Positions 15,422 to 40,022 are shown, numbered from the stretch's first letter. The stretch: 64,000 bases of DNA from Caulobacteraceae bacterium (GCA_036488935.1 DASXGR010000047.1:150-64149), one strand, 5' to 3'. Made by a program: numbers and translations. Notes: generated from the letters alone by a model not told the origin.

Positions 15422-15547
15422 GCGCGCCTCGATGACCCCGGCGACCCCACTCGTTAGCTAGGGGCGCGTGCGGAGCGGCTCCAGCGCCTGCGACCGATGT
15501 ATTTTTTTGCGTCGGCGGGGAACCAAACCCGTCGAAGGAGTGCGGAT

Positions 15548-24213: not shown

Positions 24214-25326
24214 TCAGAGCTGGGTGAGGGTGAAGACGAGAAGAGCGATCAACATGGAGCCGAAGGCCGTGACCGTCGTGAGCCAGACAACCGCAGTCTT
24301 GAGGCTCGCGCCGAGGATGCTCGAGCCGTAGGCGCCCCGCAGTGTTTGGAACAGGTTCACCGGAGTCCACAGGGCGACGAGGCCCAGCCACCAGTACACG
24401 AAAGGTGGAGGAAGGATCAGGCCGAAGGCGTTTGCGAGGAAGGCGAAGGACAGAAGGTCCATCGCCACCAGCAGGTGGTCGTAGAGGAAGTACCGAGGCT
24501 TGTCGCGATAGACGCCGGCCAGCGTGAGTCCAACGATCGGCAGCAACAGGATCGCAGCCCGGTGCGCCCAGGTGAAGAGAACGGCCCAATAATAGTCGGG
24601 GTTCGCCGTGGCCTTTCTTATGCCGTCCCGCCACCAGCCGCCCCGATGGTGGGTCGCCGCGCCCGGCGCCTCGGCCGGCAGTCCGGCGGCGACGCGATCG
24701 GCCTTGGCCATGGCCGCGGCGTAGCGCGCTGCGATCTTCGACGTCTCGCGTTGGTAGGCGGCTTCGACCCGGGCGGGTTTCTCGTCGGGATCCTTGAGGT
24801 CGCCAGCCCGATCGCGGGCGGCCTCGGCAAGATCCTCGTTCCGGTCGTTCAGCGCTTCGCGCCGCATTTCCGCCGCCGCATTCGCGCGTCCCTGAGGCGT
24901 GGCGAGCTGCGCGGCTTCTCGCTGGTGCTGGCGCGCGGAGGCCTCCTGCATCTCGTGCGCGGCGTGCTCGGCGGCGAAGATGAACAGCAGCAGGGCCACC
25001 AGGAAAGTCCGGAACGGCGGCGCATGCCTCGCAATGCGGTTCTCGATGTAGTCTCGCGCCAGGCGCCCCGGCCGGAAGAAGAGGTCTGGCGCGGTTCGCC
25101 GCAGGCGGCCGTCCAGGTGGAAGAGGCCTTCGATCCCCTCCCAAGCCAGGTGGAGGATCGACCGCTTGTGGTTGTCGGCGTCCTGGCCGCACGTATGGCA
25201 ATAACGGCCCTGCAGCGCGGAGCCGCAGTTGGCGCACGTCGTGCCAGGCGGCAGGTGAAAATCAGACCGCGGGCCAGTGAGATGGCGCAGAGAGTCTGCG
25301 ACCGCCGCCTCGAGTTCCGCCAGCAT
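24214..25326 (-). CDS. DUF3667-domain membrane protein
   Basis: CANCG..LQGRYCHTCGQ zinc-ribbon, LFHLDGRL.RT..DLFFRPG.LARDY, PPFRTFL, C-terminal TMs with DHLLVA. Confidence 0.85.
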   Translation of the reverse strand: MLAELEAAVADSLRHLTGPRSDFHLPPGTTCANCGSALQGRYCHTCGQDADNHKRSILHLAWEGIEGLFHLDGRLRRTAPDLFFRPGRLARDYIENRIARHAPPFRTFLVALLLFIFAAEHAAHEMQEASARQHQREAAQLATPQGRANAAAEMRREALNDRNEDLAEAARDRAGDLKDPDEKPARVEAAYQRETSKIAARYAAAMAKADRVAAGLPAEAPGAATHHRGGWWRDGIRKATANPDYYWAVLFTWAHRAAILLLPIVGLTLAGVYRDKPRYFLYDHLLVAMDLLSFAFLANAFGLILPPPFVYWWLGLVALWTPVNLFQTLRGAYGSSILGASLKTAVVWLTTVTAFGSMLIALLVFTLTQL

Positions 25327-25423
25327 TCCGCGCCCCGGAGCTTCTGGGACGCCGACGCTAGCCCAGACGCGCTCCCCATGCACGCCAAGCGTGGCGGGAA
25401 GCGCGGCCGCAGCTGGTCGGAAG

Positions 25424-26119
25424 CTAGTGGGAGTGGGCGACGCTGAGCGCGGGGGTCAGGACGACGCCGGCGGCGATCGCCCAGAAATGGACCCCCGCGC
25501 CAGCGCAGACGAAACCGTGCCACACCGCGCGCCGGAACGGCAGTCGGCGCATGTGGAACAGCACCGATCCGGCGCTGTAGATGACGCCGCCTACGACGAG
25601 GAGGGCCAGGACGGCCAGCGAGAGGTTGCGGCTGAGGGGTCCGAAGGCGAGGAGGGCGATCCAGCCGAACGCCAGGTAGATGATGGTCCAGGCGCGCTCC
25701 GGAACCTTCGGGAACGCCAGCTTGCCGACAATCCCGGCAACGGCGATCGCCCACACCAGGGCGGTCATCCCCACCGCCCAGAGACCCTGCAGCCGCTGGG
25801 TGGTGAAGGGGGTGTAGGAGCCGGCGATCATCAGGAAGATCCCCGCCTCGTCCAGTCGCCTCAAAAAGGGCCGCGCGGGCGAGGGGTGGCTGAGATTGTA
25901 GACAGCCGAAAAGGCCAGCATGCAGATCAGAGCCACGCCGTAGAGGGCGGCTGCAGCCACGATGCCGAGCTTGTGCGTGGTCAGGGCCTCGCGGACGAGC
26001 CAGGCCGCTCCGCCTCCCGCCAAGGCGATGGCCACGACGTGAATCCACCCGTCGACCGCACGCTCCACGGCGTTCGGATAGTGGCCGACAAGGTATTCAT
26101 CGGGAATCTGGCGGACCAT
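25424..26119 (-). CDS. Hemolysin III/PAQR family membrane protein
   Basis: ERAVDGWIH, SAVYN, RRLDEAGIFLMIAGSYTPF, GGVIYSAG, AVWHGFV. Confidence 0.92.
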   Translation of the reverse strand: MVRQIPDEYLVGHYPNAVERAVDGWIHVVAIALAGGGAAWLVREALTTHKLGIVAAAALYGVALICMLAFSAVYNLSHPSPARPFLRRLDEAGIFLMIAGSYTPFTTQRLQGLWAVGMTALVWAIAVAGIVGKLAFPKVPERAWTIIYLAFGWIALLAFGPLSRNLSLAVLALLVVGGVIYSAGSVLFHMRRLPFRRAVWHGFVCAGAGVHFWAIAAGVVLTPALSVAHSH

Positions 26120-26173: not shown

Positions 26174-26342
26174 TCATTCTGACAAAGCGATGCGCTGGCG
26201 CCCCACCGCCCGGCGATCCAGCACGACTGACAGAGCGAGAATCGGAATGGCGGCGAGGGGGAGCGCCGCGCCAATCCGGCCGGTGGACGTCCAGCCGAAA
26301 CCCGCGGCGATGGCGAGACCGCCCAACCACGCGCCTGGGCGT
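26174..26342 (-). pseudogene. Remnant 3' end of the MFS transporter gene found intact at 37194-38456
   Basis: Translates AWLGGLAIAAGFGWTSTGRIGAALPLAAIPILALSVVLDRR..., versus AWLGGLSIAAGFGWTSTGWIGAALGLAAIPILGLSVMLDRR; 112/126 nt identical (26210-26335 vs 37209-37334); no start codon or 5' part. Confidence 0.9.
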
Positions 26343-26368
26343 AGATCTTGCGCGGTTGTCGTGACCGC

Positions 26369-27496
26369 CTAGGCTGTGGCCCCGTCGAGCATTTCGGTGA
26401 AGCCGCCCGGTGCGTAGGGCCCGATGCAGATCTGTTCGAGCACACCGATGCCCCGGCGGGACCCGTCGCTTGCGCGCACCACCTGCTGGGTGTGCAGGTG
26501 CCAGGGCTCCAGCGGGTTCAGCTGCCGCGGATCGAAGGACTCGTGGCCTGTCGCCAGCTCGCCTTTCCACATGCCCTGGCCCCACTGGGGGTGGAAGTAG
26601 CCCAAGCCCTTCATCTGGAACTTGAGGATGGGATCAAGCGCGATAGTGCGCACGCCTCCGTCGTGGTCGACCAGGTCGATCTCCGCCGAGTTAGCGAGGC
26701 GCGTGCCCGGATGGTACCGAACTCGGTGCCGCGCGGTCGCCATGCGTTGGTCGAGCCCGTCCTCGACGCCTGGAACCTCTGCCTCGCTGGCGTAGAGCGG
26801 CGCAACGATTCCCTCGCGCACCAGGGCCTCGCCGTTCTCGCCGTCGAAGAAGATCGCGTGCGTAATGTGGTCTTCCCAGAACAGTGGCGCCCAGAGAAAG
26901 AATGCGCCCCGCCGCGGCTGCGGCGCGCCGCCGATCTCGGGTTCACCGACGCCCCGCACGCCCCAGGAGCGGTCCTTCGTGCCATAGCAGACCGCCTCCT
27001 CGACATGGATCTCGCCGTCAGGGTCGCGCACGAATCCACTCCAGCGACCGAATTGGTCGAAACGCGTGGAGTCCATCCCCCTGCGGGCGCCCGTCCAGAG
27101 CGTTTGTCGGGCCTCCTGGATCGCCGCCGTGCGGGCGGAGAATGTGAGGTCGCAGGAAATGCCGCTCTCGTTGTCCTCCAACACGACGCTCGCGCGCTTC
27201 ATCGGTTCGATGACCTCGATGCGGAAGGGGCCCACCTGCATCTCAGTCCGCTCGGTCGGCGCGCGGCGCGAGCCGTAGAAGCAGTGCTGCCGCCCGTCCC
27301 GTCTCACCACAGAGAAGGCGCAGTCCAGGATGCCGCGATGCGGGTAAATGGCCATGCCGACGCCGAAGTAATACGAGCCGTCGTTGGCGTAGCCGTTGAA
27401 CCAGGTCCGGTCATACACATTGCGGTCGCTGGTCGCGGGATGGGCGATCGGTTCGGGCGTCTGGTGGATCGGGAAGTCGTCGAGCTTGTTCAGCAT
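26369..27496 (-). CDS. Hypothetical protein, CrtC/AttH-like double beta-barrel fold suspected
   Basis: YDRTWFNG, GPFRIEVIEPMKR, RFDQFGRWSG, GTKDRSWGVR motifs shared with 33934-34992. Confidence 0.6.
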   Translation of the reverse strand: MLNKLDDFPIHQTPEPIAHPATSDRNVYDRTWFNGYANDGSYYFGVGMAIYPHRGILDCAFSVVRRDGRQHCFYGSRRAPTERTEMQVGPFRIEVIEPMKRASVVLEDNESGISCDLTFSARTAAIQEARQTLWTGARRGMDSTRFDQFGRWSGFVRDPDGEIHVEEAVCYGTKDRSWGVRGVGEPEIGGAPQPRRGAFFLWAPLFWEDHITHAIFFDGENGEALVREGIVAPLYASEAEVPGVEDGLDQRMATARHRVRYHPGTRLANSAEIDLVDHDGGVRTIALDPILKFQMKGLGYFHPQWGQGMWKGELATGHESFDPRQLNPLEPWHLHTQQVVRASDGSRRGIGVLEQICIGPYAPGGFTEMLDGATA

Positions 27497-27616
27497 GGGC
27501 GCGCCTCGGGAGTCAGTCCGGTTTCAGTCAAGAGGGCTGATGGTCTGAGCCGGATCGGCTCGTCGACCTGGCCCGCTCGATCGCGGCGTGGAGATCAATC
27601 AGCAGCTTCGCTGTGC

Positions 27617-27655
27617 GGGATAGCATCAACTTAATAGTTGGCCAACTAGCAAATC
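27617..27655. promoter_or_regulatory. 39-bp operator-like element, copy 1 (core palindrome TAGTTGGCCAACTA)
   Basis: 34/39 identical to 36081-36119; lies in a divergent promoter region. Confidence 0.75.
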
Positions 27656-27697
27656 TGGAGTCTTATCGCCCGAGCGCCTCCGGGAACCAAAGCGAAC

Positions 27698-29251
27698 ATG
27701 CATCCCTCGATCCACGCCAAAACCCACCCCGACAAAGCCGCCTACGTCATGGCAGGGTCAGGGGAGATCGTGACCTATGCCGAGCTCGACGCGCGCTCGA
27801 ACCAGGGCGCCCATCTTTTCCGCTCGCCGGGCGTCGAGACCGGCGACTCGGTCGCCCTCATCATCGACAACAGCCCGCGCTACTTCGAAGCGATCTGGGC
27901 CGCGCAACGCTCGGGCGTCCGCTTCACGGCGATCTCTTCCAAGCTGACCGCCGGCGAGGTCGAGTACATCGTGAAGGATTGCGGGGCGAAGGCGCTCATC
28001 GCGGGCGTCGCGGTGGCTGACGTCGCACTTGCGCTCGCCCCGCTGATCCCTGGCGTGAAACTCTACATGGTCGACGGCGCCGCGGGTCCGTTCGAGAGCT
28101 TCGAGACGGCGCGTTCGAGATTCCCGACGAGTCCGATCGCTGACGAATCAGCGGGCGGCCCGATGCTCTATTCGTCCGGCACCACCGGCCGCCCCAAGGG
28201 CGTACGGTCCGCGAACGCGGCGCAGCGGCAGCCGATCGGGGCGGCCAACGGGATCGCGAGCCTGGGGCAAGCGCTCTACGGCTGGACGTCGGAGTCGATC
28301 TATCTTTCGCCGGCTCCGCTGTACCACGCCGCCCCTCTCGGCTGGTCGATGGCCATGCAGGCGCTTGGCGGGACGGTGATCCTGATGGAGCGCTTCGACG
28401 CCGAGGACGCCCTGCGCTGCATCCAGGACTACAAGGTCACCACCGCTCAGTGGGTGCCCACGCATTTCGTCCGCATGCTGAAATTGCCGCCTGAGGCGCG
28501 CGCCAGGTATGACCTCTCGTCGCTGACCCAGGTGTTCCACGCCGCCGCGCCCTGCCCCATCCCGGTCAAGGAACAGATGATCGCCTGGTGGGGACCGATC
28601 ATCAGCGAGTACTACGCCGGCACCGAGGGCAACGGCTTCACCGCGATCAATTCCCAGGAGTGGCTGGCGCACAAAGGGTCGGTCGGCCGTGCGCTCATGG
28701 GCGAGGTCAAGATCTGCGACGAGAACGGCGATCCGCTGCCAACCGGAGACGAAGGCCTGGTCTACTTCGCCGGTGGGGGACAGTTCGAGTACCACAACGA
28801 CCCCGAGAAGACGGCGGAGAGCCGCAACAGGAACGGCTGGACGACGCTGGGCGATGTGGGCCGAGTTGACGAGGACGGCTATCTGTACCTCACCGACCGC
28901 AAGAGCTTCATGATCATCTCCGGCGGCGTGAACATCTATCCGCAGGAGATCGAGAACCTGCTCACCACCCATCCCAGTGTCACCGACGTCGCTGTGGTCG
29001 GCGCGCCGCACGAGGAGATGGGCGAGCAGGTGGTAGCGGTCATCCAGCCCGCCGACTGGAACGAGGCGGGCGAGGCCCTCGCGACCGAACTCCTGGCCTT
29101 CGCCCGCGCGAACCTTTCCCACGTCAAGGCGCCGCGCAGAATCGACTTCATGCAGGAGTTGCCTCGTCAGCCGACCGGCAAGCTCTACAAGCGCCTCATC
29201 CGCGACGCCTACTGGCGCAAAGAGGACGCGCCCATTGTCGCGAGCAGTTAG
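27698..29251 (+). CDS. Acyl-CoA synthetase (AMP-forming)
   Basis: MLYSSGTTGRPKG, PLYHAAP, EYYAGTEG, TLGDVG..DEDGYLYLTDRK...IISGGVNIYPQEIE, TGKLYKR. Confidence 0.95.
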   Translation: MHPSIHAKTHPDKAAYVMAGSGEIVTYAELDARSNQGAHLFRSPGVETGDSVALIIDNSPRYFEAIWAAQRSGVRFTAISSKLTAGEVEYIVKDCGAKALIAGVAVADVALALAPLIPGVKLYMVDGAAGPFESFETARSRFPTSPIADESAGGPMLYSSGTTGRPKGVRSANAAQRQPIGAANGIASLGQALYGWTSESIYLSPAPLYHAAPLGWSMAMQALGGTVILMERFDAEDALRCIQDYKVTTAQWVPTHFVRMLKLPPEARARYDLSSLTQVFHAAAPCPIPVKEQMIAWWGPIISEYYAGTEGNGFTAINSQEWLAHKGSVGRALMGEVKICDENGDPLPTGDEGLVYFAGGGQFEYHNDPEKTAESRNRNGWTTLGDVGRVDEDGYLYLTDRKSFMIISGGVNIYPQEIENLLTTHPSVTDVAVVGAPHEEMGEQVVAVIQPADWNEAGEALATELLAFARANLSHVKAPRRIDFMQELPRQPTGKLYKRLIRDAYWRKEDAPIVASS

Positions 29252-29664
29252 CCGGCCTCAAGCTGTTTTATGGGCGCTGCGGTTGCGTCCAGCTTCATCT
29301 TCAGTCGCTCCGAGGCTCCGGTCAGCATTTCGAGAGCCCGGTCTATCTCCTCGCGTTCGCGCGTCAGGGCGGCGAGCCGCTCCCTGAACATCGGCAGCGC
29401 GCGAGCGAACTGCGCGTCGCGGCCGCCGTTGTCGTAAGCTTCGAAGAGCTCGCGGATCTCCTTGATCGAGAAGCCCATCCGTCGCGCGTGGAGGATAAGA
29501 CGCAGCCGCACCTGCTCCTGGCGCGAATAGATGCGAACCTGGTTGTTCCGTCGTGGGGAAAGCAGTCCCTGCTCCTCGTAGAACCGCAACGCCCTCAGGG
29601 TCGCGCCCGACTGGCGGCAGAGCTGGGTGATAGTCAGCGCTTCGCGCAGCGCGGTCGTCGGCAT
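29248..29664 (-). CDS. MerR-family regulator (LiuR-like, no metal-binding Cys)
   Basis: TITQLCRQSGATLRALRFYEEQGLLSPRR...RIYS...GFSIKEIRELF; start ATG 29664. Confidence 0.88.
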   Translation of the reverse strand: MPTTALREALTITQLCRQSGATLRALRFYEEQGLLSPRRNNQVRIYSRQEQVRLRLILHARRMGFSIKEIRELFEAYDNGGRDAQFARALPMFRERLAALTREREEIDRALEMLTGASERLKMKLDATAAPIKQLEAG

Positions 29665-29713
29665 TCCGTTCCTCTCCTGCCTCCGCAGCAGACAAGGCCC
29701 ATAGATCGTATAG

Positions 29714-29736
29714 ATAATTGTTGGATGGCCAGCTAT
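29714..29736. promoter_or_regulatory. Candidate TetR operator upstream of tetR
   Basis: ATAATTGTTGGATGGCCAGCTAT; 20/23 match to the reverse complement of 30712-30734. Confidence 0.65.
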
Positions 29737-29861
29737 CTTGTCAATGTCCCTAGGACGACGCCCGTCACGGCGCGAGCCATGGCCGCTGCCGATCGACAGC
29801 GGCTTTTCGAAGGGTTCGTGGCTGATTTGAAGGGGGCGAGGGCAACAGGTAACGTTCCGTC

Positions 29862-30506
29862 TTGATGGAGAACATGCTGCACGCACCGCCGCAACGCCGC
29901 CGCACCCAGGCCGAGCGCAGAGACGAGTCCGAACGTGGACTGGTGAAGGCTGCGATCGCCGTAGTGTCCGAAGAAGGGGTCAGCGCCGCGACCTTCGAGG
30001 CCATCGGCCAGCGCGGCGGCTACAGCCGCGGGCTCGTCGGGCAGCGCTTCGGCTCGAAGCTCGGTCTGATAGAGGCTGTGATCACCTACCTGCATGACGA
30101 GAAGGAAACTCTCGCGACGGGCCCCAGCATCGACAGCCTGCCTGGCCTTGAAGCGCTTCTGACCCATGTCGACCTCTATCTACAGAGGCTGTCGAACCTG
30201 GGTGAGCTTGGGGCCTACTTCCGCCTCCTGGCATGGGCCGTGGCGGATATCTCCGCCTTCAGGTCGGCCTTTGCCGCAGCCCACGATCACGTCCGCCAGC
30301 GTTTCGAAGCCTGGATCATTCGGGGCCAGCACGAAGGCCACATCCGGTCGGACCTGGACCCAACCGCGGCGGCTCTGATGGTCGGAAGCCAGCTCCTAGG
30401 TCTCTCGATCCAGGTGCTGATCGACCCTGAGATGAACATCGATCCCATCCGCGGCACCTGCGTGGCCACGCTGCGTCAGGCATTCTCCAAGCCCAGGGAG
30501 GCATGA
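29862..30506 (+). CDS. TetR/AcrR-family regulator
   Basis: RRTQAERR...GVSAATFEAIGQRGGYSRGLV..RFGSK.GL HTH. Confidence 0.93.
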   Translation: MMENMLHAPPQRRRTQAERRDESERGLVKAAIAVVSEEGVSAATFEAIGQRGGYSRGLVGQRFGSKLGLIEAVITYLHDEKETLATGPSIDSLPGLEALLTHVDLYLQRLSNLGELGAYFRLLAWAVADISAFRSAFAAAHDHVRQRFEAWIIRGQHEGHIRSDLDPTAAALMVGSQLLGLSIQVLIDPEMNIDPIRGTCVATLRQAFSKPREA

Positions 30507-30509
30507 AAG

Positions 30510-30684
30510 TGGGCCACGAACCTCACGAACTCCACGAACGGGTGTTCGCATAGGCGTCAGACGGCCGGACGTTCGATGGGCGCCTTGGCGCGCCTCCGAA
30601 GTTCAACTGGAAGCGGGCGCGCAGGACGGCGAACGTCTCTTCCCGTGGAGCCCTGTTCGTGGAGTTCGTGAGGTTCGTGGCCCA
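30510..30684. mobile_element. 175-bp non-coding element with perfect 30-bp terminal inverted repeats (MITE/REPIN-like)
   Basis: TGGGCCACGAACCTCACGAACTCCACGAAC (30510-30539) is the exact reverse complement of 30655-30684; arms are 3x CACGAAC; nested IR GACGTTCG/CGAACGTC. Confidence 0.8.
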
Positions 30685-30711
30685 TCTGCGCAACGCAGCC
30701 ACGATCATAAT

Positions 30712-30734
30712 ATTGCTGGCTATCCAACAATCAT
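30712..30734. promoter_or_regulatory. Candidate TetR operator upstream of the P450
   Basis: ATTGCTGGCTATCCAACAATCAT, pseudo-palindrome TTGYTGG-N4-CCARCAA. Confidence 0.65.
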
Positions 30735-30783
30735 GTATGAAGCCGATCCGATTTCGAGCCGCAAACGTGAATTTGGAACGCCG

Positions 30784-32058
30784 ATGCCAGCTGCGCCACA
30801 GGACATCCTCGCGACCGTCGTCGATCCGAAGGCGCACGCCGACCCGCCGCGAATCAACGCCGCTTACGCATGGCTGCGCCGGAACGATCCCCTCGCCCTG
30901 GCCGAACTGCCCGGCCTCGATCCGTTCCGGATCGTCACCAAGCACGCCGACATTCTCGAAATCAGCCGCGACAACCGCCTGTTCCCCTATGGCGACTTTC
31001 CCTCGACGCACGCGCCGCCCGAGCAGGTGGAGCGCGGGCGCGCGGCGCGGGCGGCGGGCCGGCCCCTGCTCTACACCCTGGTGCAGATGGATGAGCCGGA
31101 CCACATGAAGTACCGCGCCCTGACCCAGGCCTGGTTCATGCCGCAGAACATCCGCAAGCTCGAGGCTCACACCCGCGAGCTGGCGCGCGAAGCGGTCGCC
31201 CGGATGGAGGCCATGGGCGGGGAATGCGACTTCGTGAACGAGGTCGCCCTGCACTTCCCCCTGCGCGTGATCATGGGGATCCTCGGCGTGCCCCGCGAGG
31301 ACGAGCCGCGCATGCTCAAGCTGACCCAGGAGCTGTTCGGCGCCACCGATCCGGACCTGCGCCGCAATGAGGGTGGCGCGACGCCTGAGGCCCGGCAGGC
31401 GGACATTCAGGCCACGATGGCGGACTTCTTCAACTATTTCAATGCATTGACGGAAGACCGCCGTGCCAGGCCGAGGGACGACGTGGCCAGCACGATCGCC
31501 AACGCCACCATCGACGGCCAGCCGATCTCGGCCTTCGACGCCGTCTCCTACTACCTGATCATCGCCACCGCCGGGCACGACACGACCTCGTCCTCTACCG
31601 CCGGCGCGATGTGGGCCCTGGCCGAGCGACCGGCCGAGCTGGCTAAGGTTCGGTCCAACCCGGCTCTGATCTCCGGCCTGGTCGACGAGTCGATCCGCTG
31701 GACCACGCCGGTCCGGCACTTCATGCGCAGCGCCGCGCAAGACACCACCGTGCGCGGACAGGCCATCGCCAAGGGCGAGTGGCTGATGCTGTGCTACCCC
31801 TCCGGCAACCGCGACGAGGAGGTGTTCGAAGACCCGGACGAGTTCCGCGTCGATCGCAGTCCCAACCGCCATCTGGCGTTCGGCTATGGCGCCCACCTCT
31901 GCCTCGGCCAGCACCTGGCGAAGATGGAGATGCGCATCCTCTGGGAGGAACTGCTGCCCAGGCTGAGCTCAGTCGGCCTGGCCGGCGAGGCCAAGCTCTC
32001 CGAAGCCAGCTTCGTCAACGGCCCCAAGACCCTGCCGATCCGCTACGCCCTGGCCTGA
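30784..32058 (+). CDS. Cytochrome P450, CYP108 (P450terp)-like
   Basis: AYAWLR.NDPL, MDEPDHMKYR.LT..WF.P.NIRKLE, EPRMLKLTQE.FG, I-helix IATAGHDTTSSS, ESIRWTTPVRHFMR, heme motif HLAFGYGAHLCLGQHLAKMEM. Confidence 0.93.
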   Translation: MPAAPQDILATVVDPKAHADPPRINAAYAWLRRNDPLALAELPGLDPFRIVTKHADILEISRDNRLFPYGDFPSTHAPPEQVERGRAARAAGRPLLYTLVQMDEPDHMKYRALTQAWFMPQNIRKLEAHTRELAREAVARMEAMGGECDFVNEVALHFPLRVIMGILGVPREDEPRMLKLTQELFGATDPDLRRNEGGATPEARQADIQATMADFFNYFNALTEDRRARPRDDVASTIANATIDGQPISAFDAVSYYLIIATAGHDTTSSSTAGAMWALAERPAELAKVRSNPALISGLVDESIRWTTPVRHFMRSAAQDTTVRGQAIAKGEWLMLCYPSGNRDEEVFEDPDEFRVDRSPNRHLAFGYGAHLCLGQHLAKMEMRILWEELLPRLSSVGLAGEAKLSEASFVNGPKTLPIRYALA

Positions 32059-32118
32059 CCGGCCCCTTCACCCAAACGGCGTCATTGAGCGGCGGCGTCG
32101 CGCCTTCGGAGAGTGTTC

Positions 32119-32913
32119 ATGATCATCGATCTCACCGGCCGCAAAGCCGTCGTCAGCGGGTCCACCGGCGGCATCGGCCGCGCGATCGCGGAAGGGCTGG
32201 CCAAGGCCGGCGCCTCCGTCGTCATCAATGGCAGGGGCGAGGCGCGCGTGGCGACTGCGCTGCAGGAGATGCGGGCGGCGCTGCCAGAGGCAAAACTCGA
32301 CGGCGTCGCGGCGGACCTGGCGACTGCCGAGGGCGTCGCGGCCTTCATCGGGCACGCTGCGGACGCCGACATCCTCGTCAACAATCTGGGGACCGCCGTT
32401 CCCAAGCCCTTCGAGGCCTTGAAGGACGAGGATTGGCTGAGCCTCTTCCAGACCAATGTGATGAGCGGCGTGCGCATGACCCGCCACTATCTCCCGGCGA
32501 TGGTGAAGCGGGGCTGGGGTCGCGTGATCTTCATCTCCAGCGAGTCGGCCGTGAACATCCCCAAGGAGATGATCGACTACGGCATGACCAAGGTGGCGCA
32601 GCTGGCGATTTCGCGCGGCCTGGCCGAACAGGTCGCCGGGTCCGGCGTGACGGTCAATGCGGTCTTGCCGGGTCCGACGCGATCCGAAGGTCTTGGCCGC
32701 TACGTGAAGGCGGCGGCGGAGTCGCAAGGCGTGACCCAGGAGGTCATCGAGCAGCAGTTCCTGACCGCCTTCCGTCCGACATCCCTGATCAAGCGCTTCG
32801 CCACCACCGAGGAGGTCGCCAACATGGTCGTCTATGTCTGTTCGGAACAGGCCTCGGCGACCACCGGCGCCGCCCTGCGGGTCGACGGCGGCGTCGTCCG
32901 CTTCGTCGCGTAA
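32119..32913 (+). CDS. SDR family oxidoreductase
   Basis: SGSTGGIG, DILVNNLG, FISSES, YGMTK, NAVLPGPT. Confidence 0.93.
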   Translation: MIIDLTGRKAVVSGSTGGIGRAIAEGLAKAGASVVINGRGEARVATALQEMRAALPEAKLDGVAADLATAEGVAAFIGHAADADILVNNLGTAVPKPFEALKDEDWLSLFQTNVMSGVRMTRHYLPAMVKRGWGRVIFISSESAVNIPKEMIDYGMTKVAQLAISRGLAEQVAGSGVTVNAVLPGPTRSEGLGRYVKAAAESQGVTQEVIEQQFLTAFRPTSLIKRFATTEEVANMVVYVCSEQASATTGAALRVDGGVVRFVA

Positions 32914-33092
32914 GAGCGCCTTCCGCACCGGCCCAGGTTGGCGCTGCGCTCTGCTCAAAATCCAACATTCGAGCTCTGCTGGACGGTTAACGCCGCTCTG
33001 GCCGTGGCGTCTGCTTCCGGGAGTTGGATCAAGGGAGAAGCTCGACCCTGAGCGGACCTAAGCGGGAGCGGCAGGCGGGCGCTGACACTCGG

Positions 33093-33689
33093 CTAACCGT
33101 GGCGCTTACGCCTGGGATGAAAGGCCTCGCCTGACGCAAGCCGCGCCACGACTTCGGCGATCTTCGCGGCCCGACGGTCCGGCCCCTTGGCCCAATGGAC
33201 GCGATAAAGGACCGCATAGCGGTTCGCTGCGTCAAGACTGTCGAAGAACCAGCGCGCATCGGGCTGCGCCTCGAGGGCGGCTACCAGGTCCGGGTCGGGA
33301 GTTGCGCGGCCCTGAGGCGGGTACGCCGCCTCCCAACGTCCGTCGGCCTTCCCGCGCGCAACCTCAGCCAAGCCTGCGGGCTTCATTCGACCATCGGCGA
33401 TCAGACGCTCCACGCGTTCCCGGTTCATCTGGGACCAGGCGCTGCGGGCCTTACGCGGCGTGAACCGAACCTTGTAATAATGTTCGTCCACGCGGCCGAG
33501 CTGCCCGTCGATCCAGCCATAGGCGAGTGCGCTGTCGATTGCGTCCGACTTGCTTAGCGTCGTCTCCGGCGCGCCTGGCTTGCCGAACGTCAGCCAGGCG
33601 CCAGCGGCGGGTTCCGGTTGATCTGCGAGCCAGCTCTCGAAAGCGTCGGCGTCTCGGAAGGTCAGGAGTGGAAGTTCTTGCGAAGGCAC
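33093..33689 (-). CDS. YdeI/OmpD-associated family protein
   Basis: AIDSALAYGWIDG, FTPRKARSAWSQ.N, GRMKPAGLAEV, DGRWEAAY, NRYAVLYRV..AK. Confidence 0.88.
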   Translation of the reverse strand: MPSQELPLLTFRDADAFESWLADQPEPAAGAWLTFGKPGAPETTLSKSDAIDSALAYGWIDGQLGRVDEHYYKVRFTPRKARSAWSQMNRERVERLIADGRMKPAGLAEVARGKADGRWEAAYPPQGRATPDPDLVAALEAQPDARWFFDSLDAANRYAVLYRVHWAKGPDRRAAKIAEVVARLASGEAFHPRRKRHG

Positions 33690-33933
33690 GCGAACTCCAA
33701 TTTGCGACGTCGCCCGCCATCGGCCGATGGCATGGGAGCTTAATGCGATGGCGCCCGGAGTGACTGCAAGCCGCCCTTTTGCGAACCTCGGATCGCCCGC
33801 TTACCTGTAGCAGCGCGTCGCACTAACGCTTGCTCTCTGGCGCGCGTCACCAGCCCCTAAACGTGTAATTCCAGGCGTTTGATGCGTCTTTCTGGCGACC
33901 TGCTTCTCACTTCGCCAAGTCTCTGGGCCCGGG

Positions 33934-34992
33934 CTATTTCGATCCAACAAAGTCCGCGGGCAGGTCCGCCCCCGTCGGTCGGCCGTCAACGATCTGGTCG
34001 AGATACTCCGACAGGCCGTAGCCGACCTTCCCGTCACAGCGGTATTCGGTCATCCCTTCGGTGATCCGCGTCGTCAGCTCCGCCCCGTCAGGCGTCTTGC
34101 GGCGGTTGCGCAGAGGGACCGGCGATAGCACCCGGCCCTCGACCTGGTACTCCGCCCCGGACTCCGTCCTGATCCGCGAGCGCAGCGCGGTCTGGTAGCC
34201 CTCGTTGTCCCAGTCGCTTTCGATGCTGGCTTCCTTGATCAGGTCGTAGACCCCGTCCTTCAGCACCATGCCGCCCTGGCGCACCTGGCCCTCCTCGTTG
34301 GCGACCAGCGAGATCATCATCGCAAAGTCGGACCCGAAGTTCATCGGGCACCAGCGGTACCAGTTGATCGCCTGCCAGTGGCGCGGGCCCCAGCTCTTGT
34401 CGCGCAGACCGTGACCGGAGACTTCGAAGCTCTCCTCGCCGACGGTGAAGCGGCCCTTCGCGGCCATGTGCTGCTCGTAGTGGGCGCGCGCGAACGACTT
34501 CTCCGGGTCGACCTCCAGGGAAGAGCCGTCTTCCTTCACCGTCTCCCCGCCGAACATCGGCGAGACTCCCTCGTAATCCAGCTCCACCGTGCAGGGCAGC
34601 TGCGGGTTCGTCTTGAAAGCCTTGGACGGCTCGGCCATCTCGCCTGGCCGCTCGAGCAGCAGCACCTTGCCCGAATAGGTGACGCGCAGTCGCTTGAGCG
34701 GCTCGACCACCTCGACCTTAAGCCCGCCGGCGTTCATCTCGGTGTTGCCGCTGATCCTGGGCCGGCCGAACATGAAACCGACCCGCCCGCCAGGCAGGTA
34801 CAGGCAGATCGAAATCTCCGCATAGCCTTCGTTTGGCCGGTTACCGATGCGGAACCAGCCGCCGACCTTTTGGGCCGGATCGAACATGTTGAAATACATG
34901 CTCTCGTTATAGTTGGTCGCTGCGTCGGGAACGTGGGGGAATTCGTCCTGGGGCTCCAGTCTAACCTTGAAGCCTTGTGGAGAACGGGCCAT
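33934..34992 (-). CDS. Hypothetical protein, CrtC/AttH-like fold suspected
   Basis: YNESMYFN, GGLKVEVVEPLKR, HYEQH..KGRFTVG, GLRDKSWGPRHW. Confidence 0.6.
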   Translation of the reverse strand: MARSPQGFKVRLEPQDEFPHVPDAATNYNESMYFNMFDPAQKVGGWFRIGNRPNEGYAEISICLYLPGGRVGFMFGRPRISGNTEMNAGGLKVEVVEPLKRLRVTYSGKVLLLERPGEMAEPSKAFKTNPQLPCTVELDYEGVSPMFGGETVKEDGSSLEVDPEKSFARAHYEQHMAAKGRFTVGEESFEVSGHGLRDKSWGPRHWQAINWYRWCPMNFGSDFAMMISLVANEEGQVRQGGMVLKDGVYDLIKEASIESDWDNEGYQTALRSRIRTESGAEYQVEGRVLSPVPLRNRRKTPDGAELTTRITEGMTEYRCDGKVGYGLSEYLDQIVDGRPTGADLPADFVGSK

Positions 34993-35100
34993 GGCGTCTC
35001 CTTCCGGCCGATCAACTCGGCGACGAACATTCTTCGCGATGCGCCCAACCTGGGCTCAATGTCGCGGCGTCAACGCAAGCGCAAAGTCGCGCCCATCCGA

Positions 35101-36027
35101 CTATGCCGCTGACGGCGCTGGCGCCGGCTGTTGGGAGCCGGGGCCGGCGAGCGAGGTGAATTGCGGCGCCATCTTCGGCAGGGCCTCGCTGAGGATCGAG
35201 GCCACGCTCCAGGTGTCGGCGGCGGTGACGCTCTCGATCGGGCGCGGTTGGCTGAACAGTTCGAGCGTCTCGGCGCGGGCGCCGAAGATCTGGCCGCTCA
35301 CGGCCTTGGCCGCAGGCGAGGCCAGCGCCACCGCCAGCTTGGCGGGCTGGTCGGGGCGCAGCGCGGCCTGCATCGCTTTCATCCGCGCCGCGCCGGCTTC
35401 GTCCTTGACTGGGATGGTGGCGATCAGGCGCGTCCAGGCGACGGGGGCGATGATGTTGGAGCGGACGTTCTTCGAGGCCCCCTCCATCGCCACCACGCGC
35501 GAGAGGCCCATGATGCCGAGCTTGGCGGCCGCGTAGTTGGCCTGGCCGATGTTGCCGATCAGGCCCGAGGTCGAGGTGAAGAGGACGTAGGAGCCCTCGT
35601 TCTGGTTGCGGAAGTGCTCCACCGTTGCGCGGCAGACGTTGTAGGAGCCGCGCAGGTGGACATCGACCACGACGTCCCAGTCCTCGTCCGGCATCTTGTG
35701 GAACATGCCGTCACGCAGGATTCCGGCCGGATTGATCACGGCATGCAGGCCGCCGAAGGTGTCCAGCGCCTGTTCGAGCATGCCCTTCACCGAGGCCATG
35801 TTGCTGACGCTCTCGGAGTTCGCGGCGGCCTCGCCGCCGGCGGCGCGGATCTCGCGCGCCACGGACTCGGCTGGACCTGCAGAACCCTCGTCGCCGCCGC
35901 GCTCGCCGCCGCCGAGGTCGTTCACCAGCACCTTGGCGCCTTCTCGCGCCGCAATCAGGGCACACTCCCGGCCGATGCCGTTGCCGCCCCCGGTGACGAG
36001 CACCACCTTGCCGTCCAATGCGCCCAT
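35101..36027 (-). CDS. SDR, hydroxyacyl-CoA dehydrogenase/MFE-2-like
   Basis: TGGGNGIG, GAKVLVNDLGG, AGILRDGMFHKM, GNIGQANYAAAKLG. Confidence 0.92.
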   Translation of the reverse strand: MGALDGKVVLVTGGGNGIGRECALIAAREGAKVLVNDLGGGERGGDEGSAGPAESVAREIRAAGGEAAANSESVSNMASVKGMLEQALDTFGGLHAVINPAGILRDGMFHKMPDEDWDVVVDVHLRGSYNVCRATVEHFRNQNEGSYVLFTSTSGLIGNIGQANYAAAKLGIMGLSRVVAMEGASKNVRSNIIAPVAWTRLIATIPVKDEAGAARMKAMQAALRPDQPAKLAVALASPAAKAVSGQIFGARAETLELFSQPRPIESVTAADTWSVASILSEALPKMAPQFTSLAGPGSQQPAPAPSAA

Positions 36028-36080
36028 TCTGAAAATCCTCCTCAGCTGCGTCCCGCTGTTTTCAGCGTCTCAGCCTCGTT

Positions 36081-36119
36081 GGGATAGCAGCAACTTACTG
36101 GTTGGCCAACAATCAAATC
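36081..36119. promoter_or_regulatory. 39-bp operator-like element, copy 2
   Basis: GGGATAGCAGCAACTTACTGGTTGGCCAACAATCAAATC, between the divergent SDR and AKR genes. Confidence 0.75.
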
Positions 36120-36161
36120 GACTTCTATAACCGGGCCCCTTCCGTCAGGAGTCGCCTCGCC

Positions 36162-37103
36162 ATGCAAACCGTTCGTCTCGGCCGCACCAACGCCGAGGTC
36201 AGCGTCGCCGGCCTCGGGTGCGGCGGACACAGCCGCCTGGGCATGGCCCGGGGTGCGGATGTGAGCCACGCCGCGGGGGTCGTCCGGCGCGCCCTCGACC
36301 TCGGCGTCAGCTTCATTGACACGGCCCGCGCGTACGGCACCGAGGAAGCGGTGGGCCAGGGGATCGCGGGACGGCGCGACCAGGTGTTCCTGTCGACCAA
36401 GGCCAGCCCCCGCCGCGGCGATGGGGCGCTGCTCACCGCCGCCGAACTGACCGAGAGCCTTGAAGGCTCCCTGCGCCGGCTGGGAACTGATCACGTGGAC
36501 GTCTTCCACCTGCACGGCGTGCAGGGCGCCCAGTACGAGCACTGCGCCAAGGTCCTGGTCCCCGAGATGAAGCGTCAGCAGGCGGCGGGAAAGATCAGGT
36601 ACCTTGGGATCACCGAGCAGTTCGGCGGCGACACGGGCCACGCCATGCTGCCCCGCGCCCTCGACGACGACCATTTCGATGTGATCATGGTGGGCTTCAA
36701 CCTGGTCAATCCCTCGGCCCGCAAACGGGTGTTTCCCCTGACCTTGGCGCGCGATGTGGGCACGCTGATCATGTTCGCCGTGCGCCGCCAGCTCAGCGAT
36801 CCGGAGGCCCTGCGCGATGCGGTGGCCGGCCTGATCGCGCGCGGCGAGGTGGACGGCGCCCAGATCAACGCCGCCGACCCGCTGGGCTTTCTGCGGGATA
36901 ATGTCGGGATCGGCTCGGCGGTCGAGGCCGCCTACCGGTTCTGCCGCCACGAGCCGGGCGCGCACGTGATCCTCACCGGCACCGGCGACGTCGCCCACCT
37001 GGAGGCCAACCTCGCCGCCATACAGGCTCCGCCGCTTCCTGCGGACGTGCTGGAGCGCCTGACGCACCTGTTCGGCAAGGTGGACAGCGTCTCGGGGAAC
37101 TAG
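36162..37103 (+). CDS. Aldo/keto reductase
   Basis: VS..GLGCGG, catalytic tetrad in IDTARAYG, LSTK, DVFHLH; GKIRYLGIT; ILTGT....HLEANL. Confidence 0.9.
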   Translation: MQTVRLGRTNAEVSVAGLGCGGHSRLGMARGADVSHAAGVVRRALDLGVSFIDTARAYGTEEAVGQGIAGRRDQVFLSTKASPRRGDGALLTAAELTESLEGSLRRLGTDHVDVFHLHGVQGAQYEHCAKVLVPEMKRQQAAGKIRYLGITEQFGGDTGHAMLPRALDDDHFDVIMVGFNLVNPSARKRVFPLTLARDVGTLIMFAVRRQLSDPEALRDAVAGLIARGEVDGAQINAADPLGFLRDNVGIGSAVEAAYRFCRHEPGAHVILTGTGDVAHLEANLAAIQAPPLPADVLERLTHLFGKVDSVSGN

Positions 37104-37193
37104 AGCGCCGTCCTCCCCCAAGTGGGAACGGGTTGGGCGACCGGAAGGCGCTCACGCTACCGGGCGCGCTCCGTGGGTGTTTGCACAACCTGG

Positions 37194-38456
37194 CTAACGC
37201 CTCGCTCGCCGGCGATCCAGCATGACCGACAGGCCGAGGATCGGAATGGCGGCCAGGCCGAGCGCCGCGCCGATCCAGCCGGTGGACGTCCACCCGAAAC
37301 CTGCGGCGATGGAGAGGCCGCCCAACCACGCGCCCAGGGCGTTGGCGAGATTGAACGCCGAGTGGTTGAGTGCGGCGGCGAGCGTCTGCGCGTCGCCCGC
37401 GGTGTCCATCAGCCGGGTCTGGAGCGCCGGCACGATGGCGACGATACCGCCCATGAGGAAGAGGTCGACCACGGCGGTCCAGGTCTGGGCGGCGGCCACG
37501 CCGAACACCGCCAGCACCACAACGCTCCACACCAGACCACCGAGGATCGAGGCCATCAGCGCGCGATCGGCAAGCCACCCCCCAACGAGGCTGCCCGCGA
37601 CCATCCCCAGACCGATCACTGACAGGAACAGGGGTACGCTCGCGAGCGGCGCGCCGGTCACCCGCGTGAGGGCGGGAGTGATGTAACTGTAGACGGCGAA
37701 GAGACCGCCGAAGCCGACAGCCGCCACGCCCAGGGTCAGCCAGACTTGCGCCCGCTTGAGGCCGGCAAGCTCGCGTGTAGGCGAGGCGCCGCTGTGCACG
37801 GGGATGACTGGGACGAACAGGCTCACGAGGGCGGCCGTGAGCAGGCCCAGCCCGCAGACCGCCATGAACGCCGCCCGCCAGCCGAGCCACTGACCCAGCC
37901 AGGTTGCAAAGGGCACACCCACGACATTGGCCACGCTCAGCCCCAGCATTACTCTGCCCACCGCCTTGGCGCGGCCCTCCGGTCCTGCAAGGCCGGCGGC
38001 CACCAGGGCGGCAATGCCGAAATAGGCTCCGTGGGGCAGGCCGGCGAGGAAGCGGGCGGCCACAAGTGGGACGAACGAGGGAGCCGCCGCCGTGGCGGCG
38101 TTACCCAGGGCGAAAAGGATCATCAGCCCGATCAGCATGGCCCGGCGCGGGGCCCTCGCCATCAGAACGGTGATGATCGGAGCCCCGACCACCACGCCCA
38201 GCGCGTACGCACTGATCATGTGACCCGCGGTGGGGATGGACACCCCCACGCTCCGCGCTGCGCCAGGCAGGAGGCCCATCGCGGCGAACTCGCCGGTGCC
38301 GAGGGCGAAGCCGCCCATCGCCAGGGCGAGCTCCGCCATAGCCGCGCCGTGGGGGGTCCGAACCGGAGGCTCCTCTGCATCGCGCGAAAGCGGCGGCAGA
38401 GGTTCGGTCCCCCAACCGGCCTGGTCGTGGGCGCGTTCGTCGAGTTGAAGCTGCAT
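37194..38456 (-). CDS. MFS transporter (DHA1/AraJ-YdhP-like)
   Basis: GGFALGTGEFAAMGLLP, ISAYALGVVVGAP, RFLAGLPHGAYFG, ALNHSAFN.ANALGAWLGG; true start may be downstream. Confidence 0.92.
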   Translation of the reverse strand: MQLQLDERAHDQAGWGTEPLPPLSRDAEEPPVRTPHGAAMAELALAMGGFALGTGEFAAMGLLPGAARSVGVSIPTAGHMISAYALGVVVGAPIITVLMARAPRRAMLIGLMILFALGNAATAAAPSFVPLVAARFLAGLPHGAYFGIAALVAAGLAGPEGRAKAVGRVMLGLSVANVVGVPFATWLGQWLGWRAAFMAVCGLGLLTAALVSLFVPVIPVHSGASPTRELAGLKRAQVWLTLGVAAVGFGGLFAVYSYITPALTRVTGAPLASVPLFLSVIGLGMVAGSLVGGWLADRALMASILGGLVWSVVVLAVFGVAAAQTWTAVVDLFLMGGIVAIVPALQTRLMDTAGDAQTLAAALNHSAFNLANALGAWLGGLSIAAGFGWTSTGWIGAALGLAAIPILGLSVMLDRRRARR

Positions 38457-38588
38457 GATAGTGGGCGGTCAGTCCTGCTGGAGCGTCTTTCAACGAAGCG
38501 GGAACTGGTCGCCGCAAGAAAGCGCGTTAAATCAAAGAATTAGAGCGCAGCTCCGACGCAATCGGAACTGCGCTCCAGCGAGCGCCAA

Positions 38589-40010: not shown

Positions 40011-40022
40011 TCTACGCACTCC

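What the first reader, a model, noticed from the sequence alone, without database searches (positions are those of the whole stretch)
26174..37342. ~11 kb catabolic block bracketed by direct repeats of an MFS gene 3' end: integrase-free island
Seen: 26210-26342 and 37209-37342 are same-orientation copies 10,999 bp apart, with 112/126 nt identity in the ungapped part. One copy is the 3' end of the intact MFS gene; the other is an orphan fragment 55 bp upstream of the hemolysin III gene. This is the pattern expected when DNA integrates into a gene's 3' end and restores it, yet no integrase or transposase lies inside. Inference: the ancestral order was MFS then hlyIII, and the P450 block arrived by homology-assisted insertion or by duplication and replacement.
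Basis: partly seen in the sequence, partly recalled or inferred. Interest (0 to 1): 0.68.

Follow-up and report, generated by a model that had tools for sequence, protein, structure and literature searches.

The report
Recombinase-free P450 gene block insertion
An 11-kb set of P450-based breakdown genes was inserted between a transporter gene and a hemolysin-III gene, leaving a spare copy of the transporter's last ~45 codons and no mobility gene; this kind of host-recombination scar is already known.

Summary
Window 26210-26342 and 37209-37342 are same-strand copies 10,999 nt apart, 88% identical (E 6.5e-42 in the 4.9-Mb genome). One copy ends the intact MFS gene. The other is an in-frame orphan 54 nt upstream of hlyIII.

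The predicted empty site exists. In the closest relative with this locus (G023, a Caulobacteraceae MAG), one MFS gene runs straight into hlyIII-DUF3667, with synteny on both sides. Its tail and spacer match the orphan, not the intact copy.

The block is a CYP108-type P450 regulon with TetR, MerR, an acyl-CoA ligase, two SDRs, an AKR and two Rv3169/DUF7064 proteins. It has no integrase or transposase, and its GC3 matches the flanks. In G023 and G052 its core lies in a variable region near tRNA-Leu(CAA), a region that in this genome lacks it. The position here is therefore derived.

A 147-kb contig from a different assembly carries both junctions, so this is not an artefact.

The two copies differ as much as orthologues between species do, and the orphan groups with G023's gene end. 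The most likely cause is host recombination that displaced the old 3' end (single crossover or one-sided homology). The mechanism is inferred and no donor was found. This is a known kind of event, of moderate interest.

The parts
26174..26342 (-). Orphan MFS 3' fragment. Repeat copy A is 26210-26342. It is followed by the ancestral 17-codon tail and a TGA at 26174-26176.
   Evidence: The tail and downstream spacer align with G023's intact MFS end. JGI annotation calls it a 50-aa ORF.
26343..26368 (-). 26-nt junction filler of unknown origin, between the stop of the Rv3169-family gene and the orphan.
   Evidence: Homology to G022's orthologue ends at 26366. There is no match elsewhere in the genome, and the sequence downstream of the orthologues differs.
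26369..27496 (-). Rv3169-family protein, 375 aa. It is the left-most gene of the insert.
   Evidence: NCBIfam NF053593, 5.3e-108. No Pfam hit. Absent from the G023 and G052 blocks.
27617..27655 (.). 39-nt operator-like element in the divergent promoter, first of two copies.
   Evidence: D5. Its core motif occurs only twice in the whole genome, and both sites are in the block.
27698..29251 (+). Acyl-CoA synthetase, FadD4-like.
   Evidence: Pfam AMP-binding 9.8e-64. NCBIfam FadD4 4.4e-187, below the curated cut-off.
29248..29664 (-). MerR-family regulator. The core shared with G052 starts at 29228.
   Evidence: Pfam MerR_1. G052 L191:5698-9337 matches window 29228-32918 at 88%.
29862..30506 (+). 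TetR-family regulator.
   Evidence: Pfam TetR_N.
30733..32058 (+). Cytochrome P450 of the CYP108 (P450-terp) type.
   Evidence: Pfam p450. Best solved relative is P450-terp, E 6e-129; P450tol scores 2e-114.
32113..32913 (+). Short-chain dehydrogenase 1.
   Evidence: Pfam adh_short.
33093..33689 (-). OmdA/YdeI-domain protein. It is missing from the block in G023 and G052.
   Evidence: Pfam OmdA. G023 L019 has only 20 nt at this position.
33934..34992 (-). DUF7064/DUF7065 protein, a distant paralogue of the Rv3169-family gene.
   Evidence: Pfam. BLASTP against the 375-aa protein gives E 6e-06.
35101..36027 (-). Short-chain dehydrogenase 2.
   Evidence: Pfam.
36081..36119 (.). Second copy of the 39-nt operator-like element, in the SDR2/AKR promoter.
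   Evidence: Conserved in G023 (L019:3411) and G052 (L192:1897).
36102..37103 (+). Aldo/keto reductase, the right-most gene of the insert.
   Evidence: Pfam. Homology to G023 and G052 ends 1 nt after its TAG.
37104..37208 (.). Spacer. It holds a ~52-nt hairpin from a dispersed repeat family, then about 50 nt of unknown origin, including the new 5-codon MFS tail and stop (37194-37208).
37209..37342 (-). Repeat copy B, the last conserved ~44 codons of the intact MFS gene.
37194..38456 (-). Intact MFS transporter gene. It is the last gene of the LacI-controlled locus shared with G052 and G062.
   Evidence: Pfam MFS_1. Orthologues exist in G023, G052 and G062 only.
25424..26119 (-). Hemolysin-III family gene, the original downstream neighbour of MFS.
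   Evidence: Pfam HlyIII. Adjacent to MFS in G023.
24214..25383 (-). DUF3667 gene, linked to hlyIII in all four genomes.
   Evidence: Pfam.

Best explanation
In the lineage of this genome, a 10.9-kb regulon (about 26343-37208) was inserted exactly between the MFS transporter gene and hlyIII. These two genes were direct neighbours before. The regulon comprises a CYP108-type P450, TetR and MerR regulators, an acyl-CoA ligase, two SDRs, an AKR and two Rv3169/DUF7064 proteins. It encodes no recombinase of its own. Its core earlier lay in a variable region next to tRNA-Leu(CAA). The join was made by the cell's general recombination, using the last ~131-142 nt of MFS as the homologous handle. Two routes fit. 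One is a single crossover with a circular molecule that carried this piece. The other is a homologous anchor on the MFS side with a non-homologous join on the other side (HFIR, or '3'-end displacement'). The result is an MFS gene that stays intact but ends in a new 5-codon tail (11 codons shorter overall) followed by cargo. The resident MFS end, about 44 codons plus its own 17-codon tail, was pushed 11 kb downstream as an orphan in front of hlyIII. Shown here: the repeat, the empty site, the derived position, the lack of recombinase genes, and the reality of both junctions. Inferred: the recombination route, the age (old, or a diverged incoming copy), and possible read-through from the block into hlyIII.
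For: The repeat is real and far beyond chance. G023 has the empty site with synteny on both flanks, and its MFS tail and spacer match the orphan. G052 carries the block core on the same contig as tRNA-Leu(CAA), and in G023 it abuts the DUF748 gene. In G000 this same neighbourhood (C112) lacks the block. G000 holds one copy of the block only. Pfam and NCBIfam find no recombinase in any of the 11 ORFs. GC3 of the block genes is 0.79-0.91 and of the flanking genes 0.80-0.91. An operator-like motif that is unique in the genome occurs in both halves of the block, so the insert is one regulon. The orphan groups with G023's MFS end (96% bootstrap; 5:3:0 quartet sites), not with the intact copy of its own genome. 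This argues against a simple in-place duplication. The orphan shows relaxed constraint, with W->R, A->P and M->V changes. Experiments in E. coli produced single-crossover insertions flanked by 109-950-bp duplications of the homologous piece (PMC3240628). HFIR-type displacement that leaves orphans has been proposed for T6SS and Rhs loci (PMC5361080). A 147-kb contig from a different assembly carries both junctions.
Against: No donor arrangement, meaning MFS followed by AKR without an orphan, was found in 78 genus genomes or 80 metagenome loci. How the block first came to carry or adjoin an MFS end is therefore unexplained. The copies share no exact run longer than 17 nt today, so present homology is poor for RecA. 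The age argument rests on only 123-131 nt. Four of the five sites that join the orphan to G023 lie within 22 nt and may reflect one event. Ancestry along the flanks is mosaic anyway, so the switch at the junction is weak evidence. About 26 nt at the left junction and about 50 nt at the right junction have no traceable origin.
Confidence: 0.6

Rival explanations
1. Site-specific integration by a recombinase acting in trans. The block would be an integrase-less satellite island whose attachment site lies in the MFS 3' end and which is moved by an integrase encoded elsewhere.
For: The geometry is that of elements that enter a gene's 3' end and rebuild it. In sister species the same block lies near a tRNA-Leu gene with a partial tRNA repeat, a classic integrase hot spot. 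The same MFS|hlyIII junction is also a rearrangement breakpoint in G052 and G062.
Against: There is no recombinase in the block or in G000:C112:11.6-21.1 kb. The repeats are 12-15% diverged and have no identical core longer than 17 nt. The block ends differ between genomes: G052 starts at MerR, and G000 adds two genes. Nothing else was found inserted at this MFS end in 80 metagenome loci.
Confidence: 0.1
2. Copy-insertion by replication template switching (MMBIR/FoSTeS-like). A fork stalled at the MFS end, copied the block from its old locus and returned 131 nt upstream. This would make an initially identical target duplication that has since diverged in place.
For: This route needs no MFS piece on the incoming DNA. 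It explains a duplication of arbitrary length and untraceable filler at both joints. Distances among the intact copy, the orphan and G023 are star-like, with 14, 14 and 16 differences in 123 nt. That fits an event soon after the split.
Against: The model predicts that the orphan and the intact copy are sisters. The ML tree instead puts the orphan with G023 at 96% bootstrap. The old copy near tRNA-Leu would also have had to be lost.
Confidence: 0.12
3. The insertion predates the G000/G023 split. G023 would have lost it cleanly by recombination between the two repeats, so its 'empty site' is secondary.
For: Recombination between the repeats would give exactly G023's structure. The divergence between the repeats is about equal to the divergence between the species.
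Against: G023 and G052 both hold the block in the tRNA-Leu/DUF748 neighbourhood. G023 would then have had to return the block to the same place where G052 keeps it.
Confidence: 0.08
4. The orphan is the remnant of a second, tandem MFS paralogue that decayed, with the block present between them from the start.
For: The orphan keeps the reading frame, and its divergence from the intact copy is old.
Against: No relative has two MFS genes. MFS similarity stops abruptly 26 nt after the stop codon of the neighbouring gene. G023's single MFS is syntenic on both sides.
Confidence: 0.06
5. The structure is an assembly or binning chimera of the MAG contig.
For: G000 is a 254-contig MAG with 4% contamination.
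Against: The repeats share at most 17 identical bases, too few for an assembler to join on. A 147-kb JGI contig holds the whole arrangement at 99.99% identity, and a contig from a second sample spans the left junction.
Confidence: 0.03

Closest known systems
3'-end ('C-terminal') displacement at Rhs and T6SS effector loci, proposed to work by homology-facilitated illegitimate recombination (PMC5361080, which cites Jackson et al. 2009, de Vries & Wackernagel 2002 and Prudhomme 2002)
   Same: Incoming DNA shares the conserved part of a resident gene and brings a new gene end plus cargo. The old end is kept downstream as an orphan. No dedicated integrase is involved.
   Different: Here the gene is a transporter whose new end is only 5 codons, and the cargo is an 11-kb catabolic regulon rather than toxin or immunity tips. 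There is a single displacement, not an array. No donor arrangement was found.
Single-crossover (Campbell-type, insertion-duplication) integration of a circular molecule by host recombination. In E. coli conjugation experiments this gave 109-950-bp duplications (PMC3240628).
   Same: The inserted DNA is flanked by a direct duplication of the homologous piece. The size seen here (131-142 nt) lies in the experimental range. No element-encoded recombinase is needed.
   Different: This is a natural, old event. The copies are now 12-15% diverged, and it is not known whether a circular form carrying an MFS piece ever existed.
Integrase-driven elements that enter the 3' end of a protein gene and rebuild it, such as e14 and phage 21 in E. 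coli icd (from my own knowledge, not checked here)
   Same: Insertion at a gene's 3' end, restoration of an intact gene, and a displaced duplicate end on the far side.
   Different: There is no integrase, no identical att core and no phage or conjugation genes. The block ends vary between genomes.
P450-terp (CYP108) alpha-terpineol oxidation cluster of Pseudomonas (function only)
   Same: The P450 is the closest sequence relative of P450-terp among solved structures (E 6e-129). It sits beside dehydrogenases and an acyl-CoA ligase, as expected for alcohol-to-acid-to-CoA oxidation.
   Different: No ferredoxin or ferredoxin reductase is in the block. It carries Rv3169/DUF7064 proteins, and the substrate is unknown.

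Membership tests
Integrase-mediated integrative island targeting a gene 3' end | Tyrosine or serine recombinase gene at one end of the element | tested here: not met
   Pfam and NCBIfam scans of all 11 ORFs found none. The gaps between genes are too short to hold one.
Integrase-mediated integrative island targeting a gene 3' end | Identical att core shared by the two flanking repeats | tested here: not met
   The copies are 85-88% identical, and the longest exact run is 17 nt.
Integrase-mediated integrative island targeting a gene 3' end | Target gene stays intact and relatives show an empty site | tested here: met
   The MFS is an intact 420-aa ORF. G023 has MFS directly next to hlyIII.
IS-mediated composite transposon | Flanking IS copies or a transposase, and a short (2-14 bp) target duplication | tested here: not met
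   There is no transposase, and the duplication is 131-142 nt. Only one block end carries a ~52-nt hairpin repeat.
Single-crossover insertion-duplication by host homologous recombination | Direct duplication of one homologous segment on both sides of the insert, tens to hundreds of nt long | tested here: met
   26210-26342 and 37209-37342. The experimental range is 109-950 bp (PMC3240628).
Single-crossover insertion-duplication by host homologous recombination | A circular intermediate that carries the homologous piece | not testable with these tools
HFIR / 3'-end displacement | New gene end plus cargo joined to the conserved part of the resident gene, with the old end retained downstream | tested here: met
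   The new 5-codon tail and spacer start at 37208. The orphan carries the ancestral tail, which matches G023.
HFIR / 3'-end displacement | The two copies of the gene end have different ancestry (donor versus resident) | tested here: inconclusive
   The ML tree gives (orphan,G023) at 96% bootstrap with 5:3:0 quartet sites. The segment is only 124 nt, however, and 4 of the 5 sites are clustered. Flank ancestry is mosaic.
HFIR / 3'-end displacement | A donor arrangement exists (MFS directly followed by the cargo, without an orphan) | tested here: not met
   None was found among 78 genus genomes or 80 metagenome loci.

The most novel reading that the evidence does not exclude
The MFS-end/hlyIII junction and the tRNA-Leu(CAA) region could be two docking sites of one recombinase-free cargo-shuffling system. 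The same regulon occupies one site or the other in sister species. The MFS|hlyIII junction was also used independently as an inversion or translocation breakpoint in G052/G062, within 8 nt on the MFS side. A clade-specific hairpin repeat abuts the cargo. A host-encoded enzyme acting on a cryptic site or on these hairpins might move such blocks.
Probability: 0.08. Interest if true: 0.6.

Novelty: new member of a known kind. Interest (0 to 1): 0.36.

Why it matters
This is a clean, well-bounded natural example of how a whole regulated catabolic pathway changes its chromosomal address without any mobility gene. The evidence includes the empty site, the former address in sister species, and a displaced gene end as the scar. 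Events like this are easy to misread as decayed integrase islands. They also alter transcription context: hlyIII-DUF3667 now lies downstream of a block gene with no predicted terminator in between. The case does not open a new question. Recombinase-free islands framed by duplicated gene ends are already documented, and this scan has noted several.

Tried and rejected
Read support, excision circles and empty-site reads could therefore not be checked. Independent JGI contigs were used instead.
- Plasmids: a megablast of the whole insert against PLSDB found only short hits, 72-88% identical, to acyl-CoA synthetase and similar genes. No plasmid source emerged.
- Metagenome scan with MFS: of 80 loci, none had hlyIII, AKR or the amidohydrolases beside MFS. 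The scan gave no donor and no outgroup.
- Genome scan with the DUF7064 protein: 80 loci from Phenylobacterium, Parvibaculum, Rhizomicrobium and others. The block is not a conserved unit outside this genus. Only one Rhizomicrobium contig has P450-TetR-DUF7064 together.
- Rfam over 25-39 kb: nothing above noise. No terminator-like or sigma-70-like sites at 25.9-27.8 kb.
- Composition: block GC is slightly lower in 27-31 kb (0.63-0.66 against 0.68-0.70), but GC3 is the same as in the flanks. Foreign origin was rejected.
- Inverted repeats at the two G052/G062 breakpoints: none found.
- Dating by dS: values overlap (block 0.19-0.36, flanks 0.30-0.92, repeat 0.26). Only 'not recent' can be said.
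- Exact-protein look-up of the 420-aa MFS found nothing, because the JGI gene call uses a different start.
- The spacer as a fold: it folds no better than shuffled sequence (z -0.76).


Full report
**Observation.** The window holds a same-strand repeat, 26194-26335 against 37193-37334 (142 nt, 85% identical, spacing 10,999 nt). BLAST against the whole 4.87-Mb assembly gives 26210-26342 against 37209-37342 at 88% identity, E 6.5e-42. Both copies read on the minus strand. Copy B is the end of an intact 420-aa MFS transporter gene (37194-38456; Pfam MFS_1). Copy A is an orphan that keeps the MFS frame (GAWLGGLAIAAGFGWTSTGRIG...) and stops at 26174-26176, 54 nt upstream of the hlyIII start. Similarity begins at 'ACGCCC' (26342/37342) and ends at 'CTGGATCGCCGG' (26210/37209). 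After that point the two sequences are unrelated. The longest exact run they share is 17 nt.

**What lies between the copies.** There are eleven genes:
- an Rv3169-family protein (26369-27496)
- a FadD4-like acyl-CoA synthetase (27698-29251)
- MerR (29248-29664) and TetR (29862-30506)
- a P450 whose closest solved relatives are P450-terp/CYP108 (E 6e-129) and P450tol (30733-32058)
- an SDR (32113-32913)
- an OmdA/YdeI protein (33093-33689)
- a DUF7064/7065 protein (33934-34992)
- a second SDR (35101-36027)
- an aldo/keto reductase (36102-37103)

None is an integrase, a transposase or another recombinase, and the gaps between genes are too small to hide one. GC3 of these genes (0.79-0.91) equals that of the flanking genes (0.80-0.91). 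A 39-nt operator-like element occurs in the Rv3169/ligase promoter and in the SDR2/AKR promoter. Its core motif is found nowhere else in the genome, and it is conserved in the G023 and G052 blocks. The insert therefore behaves as one regulon, probably for oxidising a terpenoid-like or alkyl-aromatic alcohol to an acyl-CoA. The substrate is inferred, not shown.

**Empty site.** Among 78 genomes of the genus, only four carry this MFS: G000, G023, G052 and G062. G023's record title calls it a Caulobacteraceae MAG. In G023, one intact MFS (C137:4166-5419) is followed 85 nt later by hlyIII and DUF3667. The contig is collinear with the window on the right side (window 24-10 kb) and shares the 46.6-47.4 kb gene on the left. 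G023's MFS has a longer tail (...LTLPE*), and this tail and the spacer to hlyIII align with the orphan, not with the intact G000 copy. The orphan is therefore the original end of an MFS gene that once ran straight into hlyIII. No relative has a second MFS.

**Where the block was before.** G023 carries P450(3')-SDR1-DUF7064-SDR2-AKR at 89-91% identity on another contig. There the AKR abuts a DUF748-type gene and 2-oxoglutarate:ferredoxin oxidoreductase genes. G052 carries MerR-TetR-P450-SDR1-[130-nt repeat]-SDR2-AKR at 88-92% identity, 2.7 kb downstream of tRNA-Leu(CAA), on the contig homologous to G000:C112. G000:C112 holds that same neighbourhood: tRNA-Leu at 11545-11631, a GIY-YIG ORF, DUF748, a MOSC gene and the oxidoreductase. 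It has no block and no integrase. G000 has a single copy of the block. Two of the three other lineages thus agree on the tRNA-Leu region, so the position between MFS and hlyIII is derived in G000. The block also varies in content. Rv3169 plus the ligase, and OmdA, are found only in G000. G052 lacks DUF7064, and G064 has a still shorter form.

**Junctions.** On the right, homology to G023 and G052 stops 1 nt after the AKR stop (CTAG). G000 then has a ~52-nt hairpin that belongs to a two-module dispersed repeat. This repeat has at least 47, 33, 48 and 39 copies in G000, G023, G052 and G062, and 0-8 copies in four more distant genus members. Most of the copies inspected sit directly after a TAG stop. 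About 50 nt of untraceable sequence follows, which supplies the new 5-codon tail and stop of MFS. On the left, 26 nt of untraceable sequence separate the Rv3169 gene's stop from the orphan.

**Age and ancestry of the two copies.** In the 123-nt codon-aligned core, the intact copy and the orphan differ at 14 sites. The orphan and G023 differ at 14, the intact copy and G023 at 16, and G052 and G062 at 13. The two copies are thus as far apart as orthologues between species (dS 0.26, against 0.3-0.6 for flanking genes). The orphan has W->R, A->P and M->V changes, which fits relaxed constraint. An ML tree puts the orphan with G023's MFS end (96% of 200 bootstraps), and the intact copy sits on a short branch near the G052/G062 node. 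Quartet sites count 5:3:0, but four of the five lie within 22 nt. HlyIII, DUF3667 and the next gene also show G000 closer to G023 (86-88%) than to G052/G062 (79-83%), whereas the body of MFS is equidistant at about 82%. This fits a resident (orphan) end and an incoming (intact) end with different histories. Ancestry along the flank alternates every few kb anyway, however, so I treat this as a hint only.

**Mechanism.** The scar matches what host recombination produces: a direct duplication of one homologous segment framing the insert, an intact gene with a new end, the old end displaced, and no recombinase. In E. coli experiments, single crossovers with circularised molecules gave 109-950-bp duplications of the homologous piece (PMC3240628). 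One-sided homology with an illegitimate join (HFIR) has been proposed for orphan-leaving displacement at T6SS and Rhs loci (PMC5361080). I rate the main claims as follows:
- insertion by host recombination with displacement of the old end: about 0.6
- insertion in the G000 lineage, taken alone: about 0.85
- absence of an element-encoded recombinase: about 0.85

The weak point is that no donor arrangement (MFS directly followed by AKR) was found. Rivals are:
- a recombinase acting in trans (0.10)
- replication template switching with later divergence (0.12; disfavoured by the tree)
- an older insertion with clean loss in G023 (0.08; disfavoured because G052 and G023 share the tRNA-Leu position)
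- a decayed second paralogue (0.06)
- misassembly (0.03)

Misassembly is countered by a 147-kb JGI contig that carries LacI-amidohydrolases-MFS-AKR...ligase-Rv3169-orphan-HlyIII at 99.99% identity. A contig from a second sample also spans the left junction.

**Context.** In G052 and G062, MFS is followed by bioB and a transglutaminase/TPR gene, and hlyIII is preceded by DNA homologous to G000:C140. The second breakpoint maps to G000:C140:34166-34199, a stretch that is contiguous in G000 and G023. One inversion or translocation explains this. Its MFS-side breakpoint lies within 8 nt of the G000 insertion breakpoint. The MFS end is therefore a boundary where contexts have changed at least twice.

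**Verdict.** It is a new example of a known kind, a recombinase-free island framed by a duplicated gene end. Earlier notes of this scan describe several similar cases in other genomes, which lowers its novelty. Interest is 0.36.

Noticed in passing
window 37104-37158; G000 copies e.g. C3:117944-118044, C243:149-249, C172:2523-2623: A two-module dispersed repeat. Module 1 is a ~52-nt hairpin (AGAGCGCCGTCC...GACGGCGCTC) and module 2 is ~47 nt. Most of the copies inspected start right at a TAG/CTAG stop codon. It has at least 47, 33, 48 and 39 copies in G000, G023, G052 and G062, 8 in G064, and 0-1 in G022, G001 and G020. It looks like a clade-specific MITE/REP-like element with a CTAG target. 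There is no Rfam match in the window copy.
   Followed up: partly
G000:C112 (L027) 11545-21113; L191 (G052), L029 (G062), L019 (G023): The region downstream of tRNA-Leu(CAA) is permuted among the four genomes. The DUF748, MOSC, hydrolase and regulator segments appear in different orders or are missing. A partial tRNA-Leu 3' repeat lies at G000:C112:20973-21056, and no integrase was seen in G000. The G000 junction between 15303-15444 and the MOSC gene is what circularising G052's [MOSC-block-15303..15444] segment would give.
   Followed up: partly
L024 (G062:C42) 10491-17046; L025 (G062:C50) 7801-8131; G000:C140:34166-34199: G052 and G062 differ from G000 and G023 by an inversion or translocation. 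Its breakpoints are the MFS end | hlyIII upstream and an intergenic point in G000:C140. An extra bioB and a transglutaminase/TPR gene sit at one joint.
   Followed up: partly
L004 (G023:C137) 1-4165 vs window 38457-47409: G023 lacks the whole LacI-controlled aromatic locus (window 38.5-46.5 kb). In its place it has 2.6 kb of unrelated DNA plus a duplicated 407-nt piece of the 46.6-47.0 kb gene.
   Followed up: no
window 26174-26371: The orphan's frame continues in frame after the TAG stop of the Rv3169-family gene, so read-through would add 64 residues with two hydrophobic helices. JGI annotation calls a 50-aa ORF here. No terminator-like site lies between this gene and hlyIII, so hlyIII-DUF3667 may now be transcribed from the block's promoter.
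   Followed up: partly
window 30510-30684: The 175-nt inverted-repeat element between tetR and the P450 gene is present in G052's block (continuous 88% alignment). It is missing from G064's homologous spacer, which is about 150 nt shorter. This suggests an insertion shared by part of the clade.
   Followed up: partly
L191 (G052:C329) 9358-9490: In G052 a different ~130-nt dispersed repeat, with copies in G000 contigs C40, C164, C231, C118 and C44, replaces the OmdA and DUF7064 genes between SDR1 and SDR2.
   Followed up: no
window 29710-29739 and 30709-30738: A second operator-like motif (TTGTTGGAT[A/G]GCCAGC) occurs only at the MerR/TetR promoter and the P450 promoter in the whole genome. Its half-sites are the same as in the 39-nt element but the spacing differs, so two regulators may be involved.
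   Followed up: partly
window 30733-32058: The CYP108-type P450 has no ferredoxin or ferredoxin reductase gene within the block.
   Followed up: no
window 17-26 kb vs L004, L025, L026: Relatedness of G000 to G023 compared with G052/G062 alternates every 1-4 kb along the right flank. For example, 18.1-19.4 kb is 92% against 87-88%, and 19.5-21.6 kb is 83% against 84-86%. This points to frequent homologous exchange among these species.
   Followed up: partly
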